Program-made: the position numbers and the translations under genes | The notes under the pieces: model-generated | Seen by the model: only the letters and a program-made list of their open reading frames with translations | What the model was told of the DNA's origin: nothing | The model's database searches: none | Source of the DNA: Escherichia phage slur09 | Length of the DNA stretch: 64,000 nt | Direction: 5' to 3' (one strand) | Sequence record: NC_028840.1 | Shown here: piece by piece, positions 44,817 to 58,219 of the stretch | Numbering within the stretch: position 1 is the first letter of the stretch | How the letters are laid out: each line of letters opens with the position of its first letter

Positions 44817-44888
44817 GCCGTCCTAGTATAATTGGTATTATCAAGCCGTAACTGGTGGAAGATGTAGGTTCGAATCCTACGGTCGGTA
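44817..44888 (+). ncRNA. aberrant tRNA-like element (acceptor stem with U-U mismatch, unresolved anticodon arm)
   Basis: T-arm GTAGG-TTCGAAT-CCTAC, acceptor GCCGTCC/GGTCGGT (6 of 7 pairs), D-loop AATTGGTAT; no clean 5+7+5 anticodon arm. Confidence 0.3.
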
Positions 44889-45390
44889 AGAACTGGATAA
44901 CTGATGCTTTTAACGTAAAAGCTTCCTAGGTTAGTTGCGCACTGCCTAAACCACGCGGTAGTTGGTTCCAGACTAACCAACCAGTCTGCTGAATAGTTTT
45001 ATTACGATTTAACTATGTCCAGGCTAAAGAAGAACTTTAGAAGGTATTCTAGGATAGTGAAGTTCTTTCTCCATATCGGAGTAGTTTTTCAAGCTATCCA
45101 CAAAGTGGGAAATGCTGACATGAGAGATGTCACTAATGGTGCACAATAGCACAGGTAATTCGCGATAACTCATGTTGAGTAGCAGCAAAAGGCGGGAAGT
45201 CATGACCCCAAGCCTAACCGAGTCCTCAATATACCGCAGGACATAACCACTAAGTCACCCTGACTTAAACTGGAAAATAATAGACGTTACTGTATTTTGT
45301 CTTGAAATACTTAATGAGTGAGACTTATGACTCTCCCGGTATCGTCTGTATTTTTAAGAGTTTTTACGAGAGTTCTTAAAAATACTTAAA

Positions 45391-45465
45391 CGGGGTGTAG
45401 TCTAAGGGAGAGGCAGGAGTCTTCTAAATTCCTTTATGCAGGTTCGAATCCTGTCACCTCGGCCA
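45391..45465 (+). tRNA. tRNA-Arg (anticodon TCT)
   Basis: Acceptor CGGGGTG/CACCTCG, anticodon loop CTTCTAA, T-arm GCAGG-TTCGAAT-CCTGT, encoded CCA. Confidence 0.75.
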
Positions 45466-45499
45466 ATTTTATTAACTGTAACTAAAACAAAGGAAATAT

Positions 45500-46447
45500 A
45501 TGTTTAATACTAAAAATATGAAAGAACTGACTTCTGAGCAGAAAGTAATTCGTACTATTAAACGTTGGGGTATTGGTGCTGTAGTTGGTTTAGCAGGCTT
45601 GATTCTAGCCTTTAATTCATATACTATTGTTTCTGATGGTACGGTTAAAACCCAAACATTTCTGGGTAAAGTAGATCCTAACCCAGTATTACCTGGTTTC
45701 CATCTTGTAAACCCATTTGCATCTTTCGATACTTTTAGTACAAAAGATATTGCTGTAAAGTTAGATAAACTTCAGGTTCCTAGCCAGGATAAGTTTAAAT
45801 CCACTGTTGACCTGACTGTTATGTTGCAGTTTGATGGTTCTAAGGCACCAATTAACCGTATTAACGCAGGTACTCAGGATCAGGCGCTAGACAAGTATGT
45901 AACTGAAAAATTACTGTCTACTATTCGTGAGTTTGGTAAGTCTGTACCTAAAGCACAAGATTTGTTTGATGCTAAAATTCAGGCTCAATTGCAAACTGCA
46001 ATTCAACAGGAAGTTGAAGAGTATGCACGCCCATATGGTTACACAGTTAAGCAGGTATTCCTTCAGGATATTACTCTGCCGCCGGTAATCATGGAACAGG
46101 TACAGAATACCAAAGTTCGTGAAGAACAGGTTAATGCTGCTAAAGCTGAACTGGCTCGTGTTGAACAGGAAGCACAGCAAAAAGTTAAACAAGCAGAAGC
46201 AGACCGTGAAGCTCGCAACAACCAAGCTATTGCCAATGAGCGTGACGCAGATGCCAAACTGTACGCAGCTAAGAAAGAAGCTGAAGCTAACGCCGCATTG
46301 CAACGTACCATTACTCCTGAGATGATTCGCTGGAAGCAACTGGAAGTTGAAATGATTCGTGCTCAGAAATACCAAGGTGGTGTACCGCAGACTGTGGTTG
46401 GCACTGGCTATGATGGCCAAATGATCATGGATATGCGTAATAAATAA
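45500..46447 (+). CDS. SPFH/band-7 (prohibitin/HflC-like) membrane protein
   Basis: 315 aa; N-terminal TM helix, SPFH-like core, C-terminal coiled coil (EQEAQQKVKQAEADREARN...). Confidence 0.65.
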   Translation: MFNTKNMKELTSEQKVIRTIKRWGIGAVVGLAGLILAFNSYTIVSDGTVKTQTFLGKVDPNPVLPGFHLVNPFASFDTFSTKDIAVKLDKLQVPSQDKFKSTVDLTVMLQFDGSKAPINRINAGTQDQALDKYVTEKLLSTIREFGKSVPKAQDLFDAKIQAQLQTAIQQEVEEYARPYGYTVKQVFLQDITLPPVIMEQVQNTKVREEQVNAAKAELARVEQEAQQKVKQAEADREARNNQAIANERDADAKLYAAKKEAEANAALQRTITPEMIRWKQLEVEMIRAQKYQGGVPQTVVGTGYDGQMIMDMRNK

Positions 46448-46471
46448 TATCCGCACGTAACATCTGAAGTA

Positions 46472-46506
46472 AGCCCTGCGTTCCCTGGAGAGCGCAGGGC
46501 TTTTCT
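46472..46506 (+). terminator. Rho-independent terminator (GCCCTGCG ... CGCAGGGC plus T-run)
   Basis: 8-bp GC stem followed by TTTTCT. Confidence 0.7.
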
Positions 46507-46520
46507 GTATTTAAGATAAA

Positions 46521-46556
46521 AGAAAAGCCCCTAAGTCTTTCGACTAGGGGCTTTAT
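46521..46556 (-). terminator. terminator hairpin for the convergent minus-strand operon (possibly bidirectional)
   Basis: GCCCCTAAG...CTAGGGGC stem flanked by T/A runs on both strands. Confidence 0.6.
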
Positions 46557-46567
46557 TGTTTGGTTCT

Positions 46568-46762
46568 TCAGAACCATATACTCTTATTACAGCAACCACC
46601 CATACGGGAGGCCAATCTTGACTGAAAATCTACTCTAGGGGGCAGGATAAGAGTAGGCTTAAAGGCAAACGGATTGAACGCCGGTATTTGCGTAAACATT
46701 GCTGGAGAGCAACAACGTGCTACAGGCATTGGGCAGCACGAAACAGATTTTCTGCAACACAT
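46568..46762 (-). CDS. hypothetical Cys-rich small protein
   Basis: 64 aa; AAGGAG-like RBS directly after the upstream stop (translational coupling); multiple CC pairs. Confidence 0.45.
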   Translation of the reverse strand: MCCRKSVSCCPMPVARCCSPAMFTQIPAFNPFAFKPTLILPPRVDFQSRLASRMGGCCNKSIWF

Positions 46763-46771
46763 AATTTCTCC

Positions 46772-47188
46772 TTAGGAGTTATTACCACCATTTTGAGCTT
46801 TTGCAACTTGGCTTTGGCAGAAGCTATTAAACTTACCCATAAGTGATACAAGCTGTTTCCCATCCTCTGTCTTTGCGAAGTCTTCGAAAAGGGCTAGTAC
46901 TGCCTGTCCTTCCGCAGAAACCTGCGGTTGTTGGGTTTGTTGCTGAACTTGCTGCTGCGGCATCTGTTGCTGCATTTGTTGAGACATTTGCGACTGCCCG
47001 CTCATTTGCTGCATCATTTGCATAGGACTTACACTTCCAGGGTTTTGCTGGAGTTGTTGCTGCATCTGTTGCGCTTCTGCTAAACGCTGTTGCAACTGTT
47101 GTAAGTAGGGGTTATCCAGACCCGGAACGGGCTGCTGGGAGCCCATACTTTGATTAAGTCCGTTATTTACAAAACCATATTTACTCAT
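46772..47188 (-). CDS. hypothetical Gln-rich protein
   Basis: 138 aa; extended Q/M-rich low-complexity region. Confidence 0.5.
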   Translation of the reverse strand: MSKYGFVNNGLNQSMGSQQPVPGLDNPYLQQLQQRLAEAQQMQQQLQQNPGSVSPMQMMQQMSGQSQMSQQMQQQMPQQQVQQQTQQPQVSAEGQAVLALFEDFAKTEDGKQLVSLMGKFNSFCQSQVAKAQNGGNNS

Positions 47189-47209
47189 AATGGGCTCCTC
47201 CCCTTAATA

Positions 47210-57125: not shown

Positions 57126-57133
57126 CGGGTTCT

Positions 57134-57220
57134 GCTGGGTTGGCAGAATGGTTGAATGCACCTGATTTGTAATCAGGAGGAGTAATCCCGTTGCAGGTTC
57201 GAATCCTGTGCCCAGCACCA
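57134..57220 (+). tRNA. tRNA with Thr anticodon TGT on a long-variable-arm (type II, Leu-like) scaffold
   Basis: Acceptor GCTGGGT/GCCCAGC (G1-C72, C2-G71), A73, D-arm GCA-GAATGGTTGAA-TGC, anticodon arm CCTGA-TTTGTAA-TCAGG, 15-nt variable arm, T-arm GCAGG-TTCGAAT-CCTGT, encoded CCA. Confidence 0.6.
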
Positions 57221-57234
57221 ATTTAAGGACTATT

Positions 57235-57402
57235 ATGTTTAAATTATTAGTAGTTATCTGGTATAGTCAATCAAATAGAGCGAATACCTCCCACGTTATA
57301 GACTTTAATACTAAAAATGAAGCTGAAAAAGCATATGCTAATTTAATAGAACGTAATAAAGAATCTCGTAGTATAGTTTATGAAGTGACTAAACTTTATT
57401 AA
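57235..57402 (+). CDS. hypothetical small membrane-like protein
   Basis: ATG after AAGGA RBS; ORF-track version 57208..57402 overlaps the preceding tRNA. Confidence 0.45.
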   Translation: MFKLLVVIWYSQSNRANTSHVIDFNTKNEAEKAYANLIERNKESRSIVYEVTKLY

Positions 57403-57410
57403 AAATTCAT

Positions 57411-57439
57411 TTGCTTTCTCTCTTATTTATTGTTATAAT
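57411..57439 (+). promoter_or_regulatory. T5-type promoter
   Basis: TTGCTT-N17-TATAAT. Confidence 0.6.
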
Positions 57440-57469
57440 ATTTATATAAATTAATGAGAGGGAAGCCAA

Positions 57470-57763
57470 ATGAAACGTTATCTTTCTGTTGTGTTCCAAA
57501 CTGGTGGTCAACACTATACCTATGAATTTCCTGGCTCTTGGAAGATCAAAGAAGGTGATCAAGTAGTAGTGTTAACACCGCGTGAGGGTTTCAAGGTAGT
57601 AACGGTTAAGCAAGTATTTCCAAAAGATCATGAACCAGCTAAAGGCATTCGCTATAAGATGATTCATGGTGTAGTTCGTCAAGTACCACGAGCGGAAGTC
57701 GAAATCAAAGTAGATAAAGATGGTAAACTTAAATATACCTCTTGCTTAGACGAGTTGCTATAA
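57470..57763 (+). CDS. hypothetical protein
   Basis: ORF track, 97 aa. Confidence 0.5.
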   Translation: MKRYLSVVFQTGGQHYTYEFPGSWKIKEGDQVVVLTPREGFKVVTVKQVFPKDHEPAKGIRYKMIHGVVRQVPRAEVEIKVDKDGKLKYTSCLDELL

Positions 57764-57969
57764 TGAGGATTACTTTCACAGAAAAGATCATGAGTAATGG
57801 TGTTATGATCATTACCGCATGGGATGGTAATCAGTGGTGTAGTGTTTCAGGTATTAAGCCTGAAGAACAAACACTAGAAAATATCTCAAAGATTAAGCGA
57901 AGAATGGCAGAACGTGCACGACTTCCAGGTGCACCTAGAAATGGCAAACGTTCTGCTGTAAAATGTTAA
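57763..57969 (+). CDS. hypothetical protein
   Basis: ATG overlapping the upstream stop (TAATG); ORF track starts at 57742. Confidence 0.45.
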   Translation: MRITFTEKIMSNGVMIITAWDGNQWCSVSGIKPEEQTLENISKIKRRMAERARLPGAPRNGKRSAVKC

Positions 57970-57970
57970 T

Positions 57971-58047
57971 GCTTCGGTAGCTTAGCGATCTAAAGCACTC
58001 GGCCGATAACCGAGAGATCGGGGGTTTAAATCCCTCCCGGAGTACCA
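57971..58047 (+). tRNA. tRNA-Ile (anticodon GAT)
   Basis: Acceptor GCTTCGG/CCGGAGT (two G-U), D-arm GCTT/AAGC, anticodon arm CTCGG-CCGATAA-CCGAG (C at position 33), T-arm GGGGG-TTTAAAT-CCCTC, encoded CCA. Confidence 0.65.
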
Positions 58048-58143
58048 AATTTAGGAACTAAGACTATGCGTCCAGGAAAGTTTAAAAAAGCTAATTGGTC
58101 TAAAGAGTATAAAGAATACTTACTTAGTCTAGTAAAACATAAT

Positions 58144-58219
58144 AGTTAGTTGGCAGAGTGGTTATGCACCTCCTTCATACGGAGCGACTACAGTGGTTCA
58201 AATCCACTACTAACTACCA
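58144..58219 (+). tRNA. tRNA with CAT anticodon (Met/initiator/Ile2 candidate)
   Basis: Acceptor AGTTAGT/ACTAACT, anticodon arm CTCC-TTCATAC-GGAG, T-arm AGTGG-TTCAAAT-CCACT, encoded CCA. Confidence 0.65.

What the first reader, a model, noticed from the sequence alone, without database searches (positions are those of the whole stretch)
44817..58219. Large phage tRNA array including Lys(UUU) and Tyr(GUA): possible counter to tRNA-targeting defences
At least 26 tRNA genes and 4 tRNA-like elements lie in about 13.6 kb behind strong early promoters. T5-type phage tRNAs are known to resist host anticodon nucleases, with a viral tRNA-Lys neutralising PARIS and tRNA-Tyr relevant to retron/PtuAB-type systems. 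The non-canonical scaffolds and tRNA-like decoys seen here fit an arms race at the tRNA level.
Basis: partly seen in the sequence, partly recalled or inferred. Interest (0 to 1): 0.5.

Follow-up and report, generated by a model that had tools for sequence, protein, structure and literature searches.

The report
T5-type phage tRNA gene region
This is the well-known tRNA gene cluster of a T5-like phage, already shown in relatives to help the phage survive bacterial defences that destroy tRNA; it is ordinary, except that this phage's lysine and tyrosine tRNAs are versions not tested in the papers read.

Summary
Window 44816-58219 carries 25 cloverleaf tRNA genes with encoded CCA. It also carries one degenerate tRNA-like gene and three further tRNA-like stable-RNA elements, all on the + strand behind nine promoters orthologous to annotated T5 promoters. 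The stretch is 96-97% identical to sequenced T5-like phages and collinear with the annotated T5 and BF23 tRNA gene region.

The anti-defence reading is published, not new. T5 tRNA-Lys neutralises PARIS. T5 and SP15 tRNA-Tyr counter retron-Eco7. SP15 tRNA-Lys counters PrrC170.

This phage differs in three ways:
- Its Lys gene is the BF23-type allele, 74-76% identical to the two tested alleles. It has C33 instead of the near-universal U33 and a host-like A31-U39 pair.
- Its Tyr gene is a third allele, which keeps T5's variable arm and the P14a promoter.
- Against a 97%-identical relative, Tyr and Lys are two of the four sharpest divergence peaks, and each lies next to an inserted T5orf172 (GIY-YIG-like) putative homing endonuclease gene.

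Homing-endonuclease cassette exchange is therefore a serious rival to nuclease-driven selection. The "decoy" idea has no support. The region also encodes a 99% orthologue of the probable Rad anti-retron protein. Interest is low. The one lead is recurrent C33 in phage tRNA-Ile and tRNA-Lys.

The parts
44548..44608 (+). Promoter P16-17 orthologue
   Evidence: 100% identical to the T5 annotated promoter. TTGCTA-17-TATAAT found in the scan.
44764..45390 (+). RNAX stable-RNA orthologue, containing the degenerate tRNA-like element 44816-44889
   Evidence: 91-99% identical to T5 RNAX. Rfam tRNA 35.5 bits. ARAGORN finds it only when relaxed; no CCA, A33.
45391..45465 (+). tRNA-Arg(UCU)
   Evidence: 100% identical to T5.
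48383..48455 (+). Promoter P15a orthologue
   Evidence: 93% identical to T5.
48411..48980 (+). 189-aa TOPRIM protein, probable Rad (retron anti-defence) orthologue
   Evidence: Pfam Toprim_2. 188/189 identical to SP15 gp147. Rad is described as a 189-aa TOPRIM protein of the SP15 tRNA region.
48938..49013 (+). Promoter P15b orthologue
   Evidence: 98.7% identical to T5.
49002..49090 (+). tRNA-Ser(GCU)
   Evidence: 98% identical to T5.
49097..49174 (+). tRNA-Ile2(CAU), called Met by anticodon
   Evidence: Rfam 40.3 bits. Relaxed ARAGORN. 97% identical to T5 tRNAI2(CAU).
49680..49756 (+). tRNA-Leu(UAA), 77 nt, short variable loop; no T5 counterpart
50150..50224 (+). Promoter P15c orthologue
   Evidence: 97% identical to T5.
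50523..50592 (+). Promoter P14a orthologue, 43 nt upstream of tRNA-Tyr
   Evidence: 94% identical to T5 and near-identical to SP15. The SP15 tRNA-Tyr promoter was shown to be very strong (PMC11555353).
50635..50722 (+). tRNA-Tyr(GUA), third allele: T5-type variable arm GTCATTGCGAC, own acceptor and anticodon stems
   Evidence: Strongest divergence peak against T5_ev212 (29% mismatch).
50740..51231 (+). HEG1: 163-aa T5orf172/MUG113 (GIY-YIG-like) putative homing endonuclease
   Evidence: Pfam hits above cut-off. Absent from T5_ev212 and unannotated at the corresponding place in SCF. Tyr+HEG1 module at 96-99% in 38 phage records.
51222..51298 (+). tRNA-Glu(UUC)
51307..51383 (+). tRNA-Trp(CCA)
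   Evidence: Allele differs from T5 (56%).
51390..51464 (+). tRNA-Phe(GAA)
51727..51801 (+). Promoter P14b orthologue
   Evidence: 98.7% identical to T5.
52204..52279 (+). tRNA-Cys(GCA)
52432..52514 (+). tRNA-Asn(GUU), 83 nt with an enlarged variable loop
   Evidence: 62% identical to the T5 allele.
52517..52589 (+). RNA3 orthologue ('putative tRNA-like RNA'); closing stem, ends in ACCA
   Evidence: 100% identical to T5. Fold z = -3.0.
52812..52888 (+). tRNA-Asp(GUC)
53384..53508 (+). RNA2 orthologue ('tRNA-like stable RNA'), two T-arm-like hairpins
   Evidence: 96% identical to T5. T-arm motifs at 53429 and 53481.
53527..53629 (+). RNAIV stable-RNA orthologue
   Evidence: 97% identical to T5.
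53636..53710 (+). Promoter P13a orthologue
   Evidence: 91% identical to T5. TTGCTA-17-TATAAT.
53923..53998 (+). tRNA-Pro(UGG)
   Evidence: Allele differs from T5 (63%).
54005..54082 (+). Initiator tRNA-fMet(CAU)
   Evidence: 100% identical to T5 tRNAfM.
54257..54730 (+). HEG2: 157-aa T5orf172/MUG113 putative homing endonuclease; its stop codon is nt 8-10 of tRNA-Lys
   Evidence: Pfam 70.2 and 54.8 bits. 44% identical to HEG1. Linked to the C33 Lys allele in 7 of 7 loci and in phage bux.
54721..54798 (+). tRNA-Lys(UUU), BF23-type allele with C32-C33 and A31-U39
54807..54871 (+). Promoter P13b orthologue. tRNA-Val(UAC), which precedes it in T5 and BF23, is deleted here.
   Evidence: 97% identical to T5. 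88-bp gap in the alignment.
54893..55064 (+). RNA2H stable-RNA orthologue
   Evidence: 94% identical to T5.
55084..55162 (+). tRNA-Ala(UGC)
   Evidence: Rfam hit only sub-threshold.
55168..55244 (+). tRNA-Leu(UAG), 77 nt, short variable loop (the T5 allele is 85 nt)
55357..55447 (+). tRNA-Ser(GGA)
   Evidence: ARAGORN -ps90. Annotated in T5_ev212.
55460..55554 (+). tRNA-Ser(UGA)
   Evidence: ARAGORN -ps. Rfam clan hit 37.6 bits.
55565..55695 (+). RNA1 orthologue ('tRNA-like stable RNA')
   Evidence: 88% identical to T5. T-arm motif at 55667.
55703..55919 (+). RNAI (55703-55809, ends in GCCA) and RNAIII (55814-55919) stable-RNA orthologues
   Evidence: 92.5% and 100% identical to T5. Fold z = -2.3 and -2.9.
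55921..55997 (+). tRNA-His(GUG)
56459..56534 (+). tRNA-Gln(CUG), with C33
56541..56616 (+). tRNA-Gln(UUG)
56625..56700 (+). tRNA-Gly(UCC)
   Evidence: ARAGORN -ps. 100% identical to T5.
57134..57220 (+). tRNA-Thr(UGU), 87 nt with a class-II-like variable arm
   Evidence: 60% identical to the 75-nt T5 allele.
57399..57464 (+). Promoter P11 orthologue
   Evidence: 97% identical to T5.
57971..58047 (+). tRNA-Ile(GAU), with C33; the only difference from T5_ev212 is U33C
58144..58219 (+). Elongator tRNA-Met(CAU)
   Evidence: 100% identical to T5.

Best explanation
This is the tRNA gene region (also called the tRNA-rich region or anti-defence island) of a T5-like phage of the family Demerecviridae.

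Anatomy and shown steps: nine early sigma-70 promoters on the + strand drive short transcription units. Each unit mixes tRNA genes, small ORFs and stable RNAs. Host RNase P and other processing enzymes then release 25 tRNAs with encoded CCA ends, covering 19 amino acids (Val is missing).

Inferred function: the array keeps phage translation supplied in three situations. (a) The phage's AT-rich codons are rare in the host. (b) Host tRNA synthesis stops. (c) A host defence nuclease destroys a particular host tRNA.

Mechanisms shown in relatives: for case (c), a strongly expressed tRNA-Tyr with a distinctive variable loop outlasts retron-Eco7 PtuAB, and phage tRNA-Lys variants escape PARIS AriB and PrrC. 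This phage keeps the Tyr promoter and the T5 variable arm, so its Tyr probably works the same way.

What differs here: the Lys gene is the BF23-type allele (C32-C33 loop, G-C-rich anticodon stem, C41 at the AriB cut site, but a host-like A31-U39 pair). Its resistance to AriB or PrrC is plausible but untested.

Inferred origin of the alleles: the Lys gene, and less strictly the Tyr gene, travel with adjacent T5orf172-type homing endonuclease genes. These probably move them between co-infecting T5-like phages.
For: Identity of the region:
- 96-97% nucleotide identity to many T5-like phages.
- Collinear with the annotated T5, BF23, T5_ev212 and SP15 regions.
- All eight T5 stable RNAs, ten T5 promoters within or flanking the tRNA region and one T5 terminator map onto the window.
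- 26 tRNA calls.

Published function.

Tyr: the variable arm is identical to T5's and P14a is conserved.

Lys: the allele is shared with BF23, whose annotation says it becomes an effective amber suppressor when the anticodon is changed, so it is a working tRNA.

Codon supply: AGA, CTA, ACA, ATA, GGA, CCA and TTA are used 1.5-4.3 times more than in E. coli (the E. coli values are from memory).

Endonuclease linkage.
Against: - No experiment or structure here shows that this phage's Lys or Tyr alleles resist any nuclease.
- The Lys allele is host-like at pair 31-39. That is the only U-A/A-U inversion between the E. coli and T5 anticodon stems, and I infer it is the pair swapped in the PARIS-resistant chimera.
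- Several tRNAs (Cys, His, Trp, Ser-GCU, Gln-CUG) read codons the phage uses less than the host. tRNA-Val(UAC) is deleted although GTA is 2.2 times enriched. Codon supply therefore does not explain the whole set.
- The endonuclease activity of HEG1 and HEG2 is inferred from Pfam domains only.
Confidence: 0.8

Rival explanations
1. The array serves translation supply only. It compensates for codons that are rare in the host and keeps tRNA levels up once the phage has shut down or degraded the host genome. Any anti-defence effect is incidental.
For: The phage is about 39% GC. It uses AGA 3.9x, CTA 4.3x, ACA 2.1x, ATA 1.9x, GGA 1.8x, CCA 1.7x and TTA 1.5x as often as E. coli, and it carries a matching tRNA for each (E. 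coli values from memory). The set is nearly complete, with 19 amino acids.
Against: Experiments on T5 and SP15 show defence-specific phenotypes for single tRNA genes. Many of the tRNAs here read codons that are not enriched (ratios 0.45-1.0). tRNA-Val is lost even though GTA is enriched. PMC11464382 notes that measured tRNA abundance does not directly support codon compensation.
Confidence: 0.3
2. The unusual divergence of the Tyr and Lys genes comes from homing endonucleases, not from selection by tRNA nucleases. HEG1 and HEG2 inserted next to these genes. The flanking tRNA allele either arrived with the cassette by co-conversion from a distant donor, or had to diverge so that the endonuclease does not cut its own genome.
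For: Against T5_ev212 (3% mean mismatch), the top divergence peaks are Tyr (29%), a terminator region, the 80 nt just 5' of HEG2 (19%) and Lys (18%). HEG1 and HEG2 are insertions exactly at these places. HEG2 at 96-98% amino-acid identity is present in 7 of 7 loci with the C33 Lys allele and in none of the loci with the other alleles, and also in the Epseptimavirus bux. T5 has a paralogue (T5.069) abutting its own divergent tRNA-Asn. T4/T6 SegB, a GIY-YIG homing endonuclease, sits in and acts on the tRNA gene region (PMC2330249 and PMC13096335).
Against: One locus (L073) has the same Tyr allele without HEG1. T5 and SP15 lack these endonuclease genes next to Lys and Tyr yet have their own distinct alleles. 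The two explanations are compatible, because a homing endonuclease could spread a nuclease-resistant allele.
Confidence: 0.45
3. The tRNA-like elements (the RNAX pseudo-tRNA, RNA1, RNA2, RNA3) are decoys that soak up tRNA-targeting nucleases.
For: They are conserved (88-100% identical to T5). T5's annotation records them as stable RNAs. RNA3 and RNAI fold with an acceptor-like stem and end in NCCA.
Against: They share only T-arm sequence with real tRNAs, and RNA3 shares nothing detectable. None resembles the anticodon stem-loop or variable arm of host tRNA-Lys or tRNA-Tyr. RNA1, RNA2 and the pseudo-tRNA do not fold better than shuffles (z = -0.7 to -1.2). A simpler reading is decayed tRNA genes kept as RNase P or RNase E processing signals in polycistronic transcripts. 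No published evidence for decoy function turned up in the papers read.
Confidence: 0.07

Closest known systems
Bacteriophage T5 tRNA gene region (NC_005859 28.0-41.6 kb) and the BF23 tRNA gene region (AJ604530)
   Same: Same gene order, promoters, stable RNAs and encoded-CCA tRNAs. Twelve tRNAs are 97-100% identical to T5. The Lys gene and the ORF upstream of it are the BF23 versions.
   Different: About half of the tRNAs are different alleles from T5 (56-80%). There is an extra Leu(UAA) and no Val(UAC). There are no HNH endonuclease genes hegA, hegC or hegD; two T5orf172-type genes are present instead.
T5 tRNA-Lys that neutralises PARIS (PMC11464382)
   Same: Same locus and same anticodon UUU. 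The anticodon stem differs from the host's, and C41 sits at the AriB cut site as in T5.
   Different: Only 74% identical. It has A31-U39 like E. coli instead of T5's U31-A39, and C33 instead of U33. It has not been tested against PARIS.
T5 and SP15 tRNA-Tyr that counter retron-Eco7 PtuAB, and SP15 tRNA-Lys that counters PrrC170 (PMC11555353; PMC13096335)
   Same: Orthologous Tyr gene behind the same P14a promoter. The variable arm GTCATTGCGAC is identical to T5's.
   Different: 80% identical to the T5 allele and 67% to the SP15 allele. The acceptor and anticodon stems are its own. The SP15-type Lys is 76% identical.
T4/T6 SegB, a GIY-YIG homing endonuclease in the tRNA gene cluster (PMC2330249, PMC13096335)
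   Same: A GIY-YIG-superfamily gene embedded among phage tRNA genes, variably present between close relatives, next to a tRNA-Tyr gene with an anti-defence role.
   Different: A different family (T5orf172/MUG113, not a Seg protein). No activity data. No sign of segmental amplification here.
Rad (retron anti-defence; SP15 ORF75; bioRxiv 10.1101/2023.03.15.532788)
   Same: 189-aa TOPRIM protein at the same position of the tRNA region, 188/189 identical to SP15 gp147.
   Different: The equation ORF75 = gp147 is my inference from length, domain and location. It is not stated in the text I could read.

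Membership tests
T5-type tRNA gene region (Demerecviridae) | Synteny and high nucleotide identity with the annotated T5 and BF23 region | tested here: met
   96-97% over 85-91% of the query in many T5-like phages. Collinear with the annotations.
T5-type tRNA gene region (Demerecviridae) | Dense array of tRNA genes with encoded CCA, on one strand | tested here: met
   25 tRNAs with CCA and one degenerate copy in 13.4 kb, all on the + strand.
T5-type tRNA gene region (Demerecviridae) | T5 early promoters and the stable RNAs (RNAX, 1, 2, 3, I, III, IV, 2H) interspersed among the tRNA genes | tested here: met
   All map at 88-100% identity.
T5-type tRNA gene region (Demerecviridae) | Dispensable for growth on laboratory hosts | not testable with these tools
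   Known for T5 deletion mutants. Not tested for this phage.
PARIS-resistant viral tRNA-Lys (T5 type) | Same allele as the tested T5 tRNA-Lys | tested here: not met
   74% identity.
PARIS-resistant viral tRNA-Lys (T5 type) | U31-A39 in place of the host A31-U39 (inferred to be the swap that made E. coli tRNA-Lys resistant) | tested here: not met
   The window has A31-U39 like E. coli. The identity of the swapped pair is my inference.
PARIS-resistant viral tRNA-Lys (T5 type) | Sequence change at the AriB cut site (between nt 40 and 41) | tested here: met
   C40-C41 as in T5, against C40-A41 in E. coli.
PARIS-resistant viral tRNA-Lys (T5 type) | Not cleaved by activated AriB, and rescues infection | not testable with these tools
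   Needs a cleavage assay or plaque assay.
Retron-Eco7/Septu-countering phage tRNA-Tyr | tRNA-Tyr(GUA) gene behind the strong phage promoter | tested here: met
   P14a orthologue at 50523-50592, with Tyr starting at 50635. Promoter strength itself was not measured.
Retron-Eco7/Septu-countering phage tRNA-Tyr | Distinctive T5-type variable loop (reported as the basis of resistance, PMC13096335) | tested here: met
   GTCATTGCGAC is identical to T5. E. coli has GTCATCGAC or GTCACAGAC.
Retron-Eco7/Septu-countering phage tRNA-Tyr | Rescue of infection on Eco7+ hosts | not testable with these tools
   Needs a plaque assay.
PrrC-evading phage tRNA-Lys (SP15 type) | Same allele as the tested SP15 tRNA-Lys | tested here: not met
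   SP15 carries the ev212-type allele, 76% identical to the window's.
GIY-YIG-superfamily homing endonuclease (T5orf172/MUG113) | Domain match above the curated threshold | tested here: met
   HEG1 34.8 and 34.5 bits; HEG2 54.8 and 70.2 bits; cut-offs 20 and 22.3. Membership of the GIY-YIG clan is from my own knowledge of Pfam.
GIY-YIG-superfamily homing endonuclease (T5orf172/MUG113) | Present or absent at the same site among close relatives, with diverged flanks | tested here: met
   Insertions against T5_ev212 at 50731-51203 and 54259-54721, with divergence peaks in the flanks.
GIY-YIG-superfamily homing endonuclease (T5orf172/MUG113) | Site-specific cleavage of the endonuclease-free allele, and preferential inheritance | not testable with these tools
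   No solved-structure relative by sequence. Needs biochemistry and mixed infections.
Rad anti-retron protein | 189-aa TOPRIM protein encoded in the tRNA region, orthologous to SP15 ORF75 | tested here: inconclusive
   99% identical to SP15 gp147, with a TOPRIM domain. That gp147 is ORF75 is inferred, not confirmed.

The most novel reading that the evidence does not exclude
The C32-C33 anticodon loops seen here in tRNA-Lys(UUU), tRNA-Ile(GAU) and tRNA-Gln(CUG) may be a recurrent phage adaptation that blunts anticodon-loop nucleases. Candidates are enzymes such as PrrC, which cut next to position 33, or the host modifications such enzymes depend on. For tRNA-Lys, the resistant allele would then be spread between T5-like phages as a cassette by the adjacent T5orf172 homing endonuclease. 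The evidence does not exclude this: C33 occurs in 24 of 661 distinct phage tRNAs in the fetched loci, including 7 of 40 tRNA-Ile(GAU) on at least three unrelated backbones, against 0 of 49 E. coli tRNAs. The window's tRNA-Ile differs from its closest relative only by U33C.
Probability: 0.2. Interest if true: 0.55.

Novelty: already known. Interest (0 to 1): 0.2.

Why it matters
As stated, the finding re-identifies a textbook locus whose anti-defence role was published in 2023-2026, so it adds nothing to the field. Two smaller points are useful.

First, T5-like phages carry at least three tRNA-Lys allele families and at least two to three tRNA-Tyr allele families. Only some of these were tested in the papers read here, so results from T5 and SP15 cannot simply be transferred to BF23-type phages such as this one.

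Second, the strict linkage of the C33 tRNA-Lys allele with a homing-endonuclease-type gene, and the recurrence of C33 in phage tRNA-Ile, give a cheap and testable lead on how tRNA-level counter-defence alleles arise and spread.

Tried and rejected
- Generic sigma-70 scan: not enriched over shuffles (31 against 36.3 +/- 5.9). I replaced it by mapping the annotated T5 promoters.
- BLAST of the stable RNAs against 1000+ tRNAs, to find what they mimic: only 17-nt T-arm matches. The decoy idea has no support.
- Folding of the tRNA-like RNAs: RNA1, RNA2 and the pseudo-tRNA are not more stable than shuffles.
- Solved-structure sequence search for HEG2: no hit.
- PADLOC scan of ten proteins from the region: only weak domain-level hits (PDC-S57 for the two endonucleases, DnaG-like for Rad).
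- Locating the PARIS triggers Ptr1 and Ptr2 (T5 'ORF094' and 'ORF103') in the window: failed, because T5.094 in NC_005859 is nrdB, so the paper's numbering differs from the locus tags.
- The Ec78 retron structure paper (PMC12819146) holds nothing on the tRNA-Tyr variable loop.
- Strict linkage of the Tyr allele with HEG1: rejected, because L073 has the allele without HEG1.
- Sequencing error as the source of C33: rejected, because BF23, KS_S14, bux and several IMG/VR contigs share it.
- An anchor scan of IMG/VR with the fMet tRNA gave only 18 short loci, so allele frequencies rest on a small and partly redundant sample.

Full report
**What is there**

The window comes from a T5-like phage. The stretch 44500-58500 matches 690 phage records, and 96 of them cover at least 80% of it. 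The best matches are Salmonella phage SCF, Escherichia phage T5_ev212 and similar phages at 96-97% identity.

ARAGORN at default settings finds 21 tRNA genes in the 64-kb window, all on the + strand between 45391 and 58219. Rfam at gathering score also finds 21, a partly different set that includes 44817-44888 and 49097-49171. Relaxed ARAGORN and sub-threshold Rfam hits add Ser(UGA), Ser(GGA) and Gly(UCC). The union of 26 calls is exactly what is annotated in T5_ev212.

Twenty-five of these are cloverleaves with an encoded CCA end. The 26th, at 44816-44889, has no CCA, has A at position 33 and has stem mismatches.

The set covers 19 amino acids. tRNA-Val(UAC) is missing through an 88-bp deletion relative to T5 and BF23. 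Leu(UAA) is present although T5 lacks it.

**Comparison with the annotated T5 record**

The RefSeq record of T5 annotates 25 tRNAs, eight 'stable RNAs' (three of them labelled tRNA-like) and a series of early promoters in its tRNA gene region. All of these features map onto the window:
- RNAX at 44764-45390, which contains the degenerate tRNA
- RNA3 at 52517-52589
- RNA2 at 53384-53508
- RNAIV at 53527-53629
- RNA2H at 54893-55064
- RNA1 at 55565-55695
- RNAI at 55703-55809
- RNAIII at 55814-55919
- nine + strand promoters: P16-17, P15a, P15b, P15c, P14a, P14b, P13a, P13b and P11

A motif scan finds 26 T-arm-like hairpins on the + strand of the window. All lie in this region. The three that are not inside the 26 tRNA(-like) calls fall in RNA2 (two hairpins) and RNA1 (one).

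A generic promoter scan alone would not have shown the promoters.

**What is known about this region**

- PARIS AriB cuts E. coli tRNA-Lys between nt 40 and 41. T5 tRNA-Lys stays intact and rescues a T5 deletion mutant. [quoted passage not shown]
- Retron-Eco7 PtuAB depletes tRNA-Tyr. T5 and SP15 tRNA-Tyr, expressed from a very strong phage promoter, restore infection. SP15 tRNA-Lys rescues phages from PrrC170 (PMC11555353).
- The general hypothesis that phage tRNAs evade anticodon nucleases was published in 2023 (PMC10264068).

**What differs in this phage**

I compared every tRNA with its T5, T5_ev212 and E. coli K-12 counterpart.
- Against E. coli, all are 56-74% identical.
- Against T5, twelve are 97-100% identical and the rest are different alleles (56-80%).
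- Against T5_ev212, whose region is 97% identical overall, every tRNA is 97-100% identical except three: Tyr (67%), Lys (76%) and Gln(CUG) (91%).

In a sliding comparison of the 17-kb neighbourhood, the mean mismatch is 3%. The four strongest 80-nt peaks are the Tyr gene (29%), a terminator region, the 80 nt just upstream of 54257, and the Lys gene (18%).

SP15, the other experimentally used phage, carries the ev212-type Tyr and Lys alleles. So the window's alleles are neither of the tested ones.

The Tyr allele keeps T5's variable arm GTCATTGCGAC and the P14a promoter, so the published mechanism probably applies to it.

The Lys allele is the BF23 type, shared with KS_S14, BF23 and the Epseptimavirus bux. 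Its features are:
- the anticodon loop reads C32-C33-UUU-A-A
- its stem has C28-G42 and G29-C41, so the sequence at the AriB cut site differs from the host's
- pair 31-39 is A-U as in E. coli, whereas T5 has U-A

Pair 31-39 is the only U-A/A-U inversion between the E. coli and T5 anticodon stems. I therefore infer that it is the pair swapped in the resistant chimera of the PARIS paper. PARIS resistance of this allele cannot be assumed. BF23's annotation says the allele acts as an effective amber suppressor once the anticodon is changed, so C33 does not abolish function.

**Homing-endonuclease-type genes**

Relative to T5_ev212 the window has insertions at 50731-51203 and 54259-54721. Each holds one ORF: 50740-51231 (163 aa) and 54257-54730 (157 aa). 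Both match Pfam T5orf172 and MUG113 above threshold, match PHROG endonuclease and homing-endonuclease families, and are 44% identical to each other. From my knowledge of Pfam, these domains belong to the GIY-YIG superfamily.

The first ORF follows tRNA-Tyr directly. The second ends inside tRNA-Lys, with its stop codon at nt 8-10 of the tRNA.

In the loci I fetched, the second ORF is present at 96-98% amino-acid identity in all seven that carry the C33 Lys allele, and in none that carry the other alleles. Phage bux has the same pair. In the phage database, 83 of 432 matching records cover at least 80% of this module.

The Tyr-plus-ORF module occurs at 96-99% identity in 38 records, but one locus has the Tyr allele without the ORF. 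T5 has a paralogue (T5.069) abutting its own divergent tRNA-Asn.

This is the pattern expected of freestanding homing endonucleases, which bring in or protect the flanking sequence. The nearest studied precedent is T4/T6 SegB in the tRNA cluster. It offers a defence-independent explanation for why Tyr and Lys are the outliers. The two explanations are compatible.

**Other content of the region**

ORF 48411-48980 encodes a 189-aa TOPRIM protein that is 188/189 identical to SP15 gp147. The preprint on SP15 describes Rad, the anti-retron protein of the tRNA region, as a 189-aa TOPRIM protein. This is probably its orthologue.

Codon counts over 35 long ORFs of the window show strong enrichment of AGA, CTA, ACA, ATA, GGA, CCA and TTA relative to E. 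coli values recalled from memory. Other tRNAs read non-enriched codons, and GTA is enriched while its tRNA is deleted. Translation supply and counter-defence are therefore both plausible, and neither explains the whole set.

**The decoy idea**

The tRNA-like elements share only T-arm sequence with real tRNAs. Three of them do not fold better than shuffled sequence. In T5 they are annotated as stable RNAs of unknown function. I found no evidence for decoy function. Decayed tRNA genes retained as processing signals is the simpler reading.

**An unexplained detail**

Three tRNAs here have C at position 33, which from established tRNA knowledge is almost always U: Lys, Gln(CUG) and Ile(GAU).
- The Ile gene differs from that of T5_ev212 by this single base.
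- An IMG/VR scan with Y at that position found the C variant in 4 of 59 loci, on unrelated tRNA-Ile backbones.
- Among 661 distinct phage tRNAs from all fetched loci, 24 have C33, including 7 of 40 Ile(GAU). None of the 49 E. coli tRNAs fetched has it.

The sample is small, partly redundant and anchored on tRNA-Ile, so this is a lead rather than a result.

**Verdict**

Novelty: already known. Interest: low (0.2).

Noticed in passing
window 54721-54798, 56459-56534, 57971-58047: Three tRNAs (Lys UUU, Gln CUG, Ile GAU) have C32-C33 instead of the near-universal U33. The Ile gene differs from T5_ev212 only by U33C. C33 recurs in phage tRNA-Ile(GAU) on unrelated backbones (7 of 40 distinct sequences) and is absent from 49 E. 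coli tRNAs.
   Followed up: partly
window 48411-48980 (+): 189-aa TOPRIM protein, 188/189 identical to SP15 gp147. It is probably Rad, the anti-retron protein reported to reduce retron ncRNA and msDNA levels. Most records annotate it as 'DNA primase'.
   Followed up: partly
window 50740-51231 and 54257-54730 (+): Two paralogous T5orf172/MUG113 (GIY-YIG-like) ORFs inserted next to tRNA-Tyr and tRNA-Lys. The second ends inside the tRNA (stop codon = tRNA nt 8-10) and is strictly linked with the C33 Lys allele in the fetched loci.
   Followed up: yes
window 54799-54806 (junction): tRNA-Val(UAC), present after tRNA-Lys in T5, BF23, SP15 and bux, is cleanly deleted here (88 bp), as in KS_S14 and T5_ev212. 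Yet the GTA codon is about 2.2 times more frequent than in E. coli.
   Followed up: partly
window 49680-49756, 55168-55244, 57134-57220, 52432-52514: Unusual scaffolds. Both Leu tRNAs are 77 nt with a short variable loop, although bacterial tRNA-Leu is normally class II and T5's Leu(UAG) is 85 nt. Thr(UGU) is 87 nt with a stem-loop variable arm. Asn is 83 nt with an enlarged variable loop. All are shared with T5_ev212. The amino acid each one accepts is unverified.
   Followed up: no
window 52517-52589 and 55703-55809: The stable-RNA orthologues RNA3 and RNAI fold with a terminal acceptor-like stem and end in ACCA and GCCA. RNA3 and RNAIII are 100% identical to T5, although neighbouring DNA is about 95% identical.
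   Followed up: partly
window 46568-48205 (- strand) and 45500-46447 (+): A GC-richer block (46.5% against about 39%) of three - strand ORFs (T5.077-079 orthologues; PHROGs of unknown function), driven by P12, sits in the middle of the tRNA region. It lies next to an SPFH/Band-7 lipoprotein gene and a bidirectional terminator.
   Followed up: no
window 44122-44556 (+): A YqeY/GatB-C-terminal-like protein ('tRNA amidotransferase', T5.081 orthologue) is encoded immediately upstream of the tRNA region. The Pfam hit is weak (20.8 bits, below the cut-off).
   Followed up: no
window 51819-52191, 56191-56453, 58463-58597: Further insertions relative to T5_ev212 carry small ORFs of unknown function (phrog_8408, phrog_7042 with a weak DUF7695 match, phrog_27262). 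This shows the mosaic turnover of the region.
   Followed up: no
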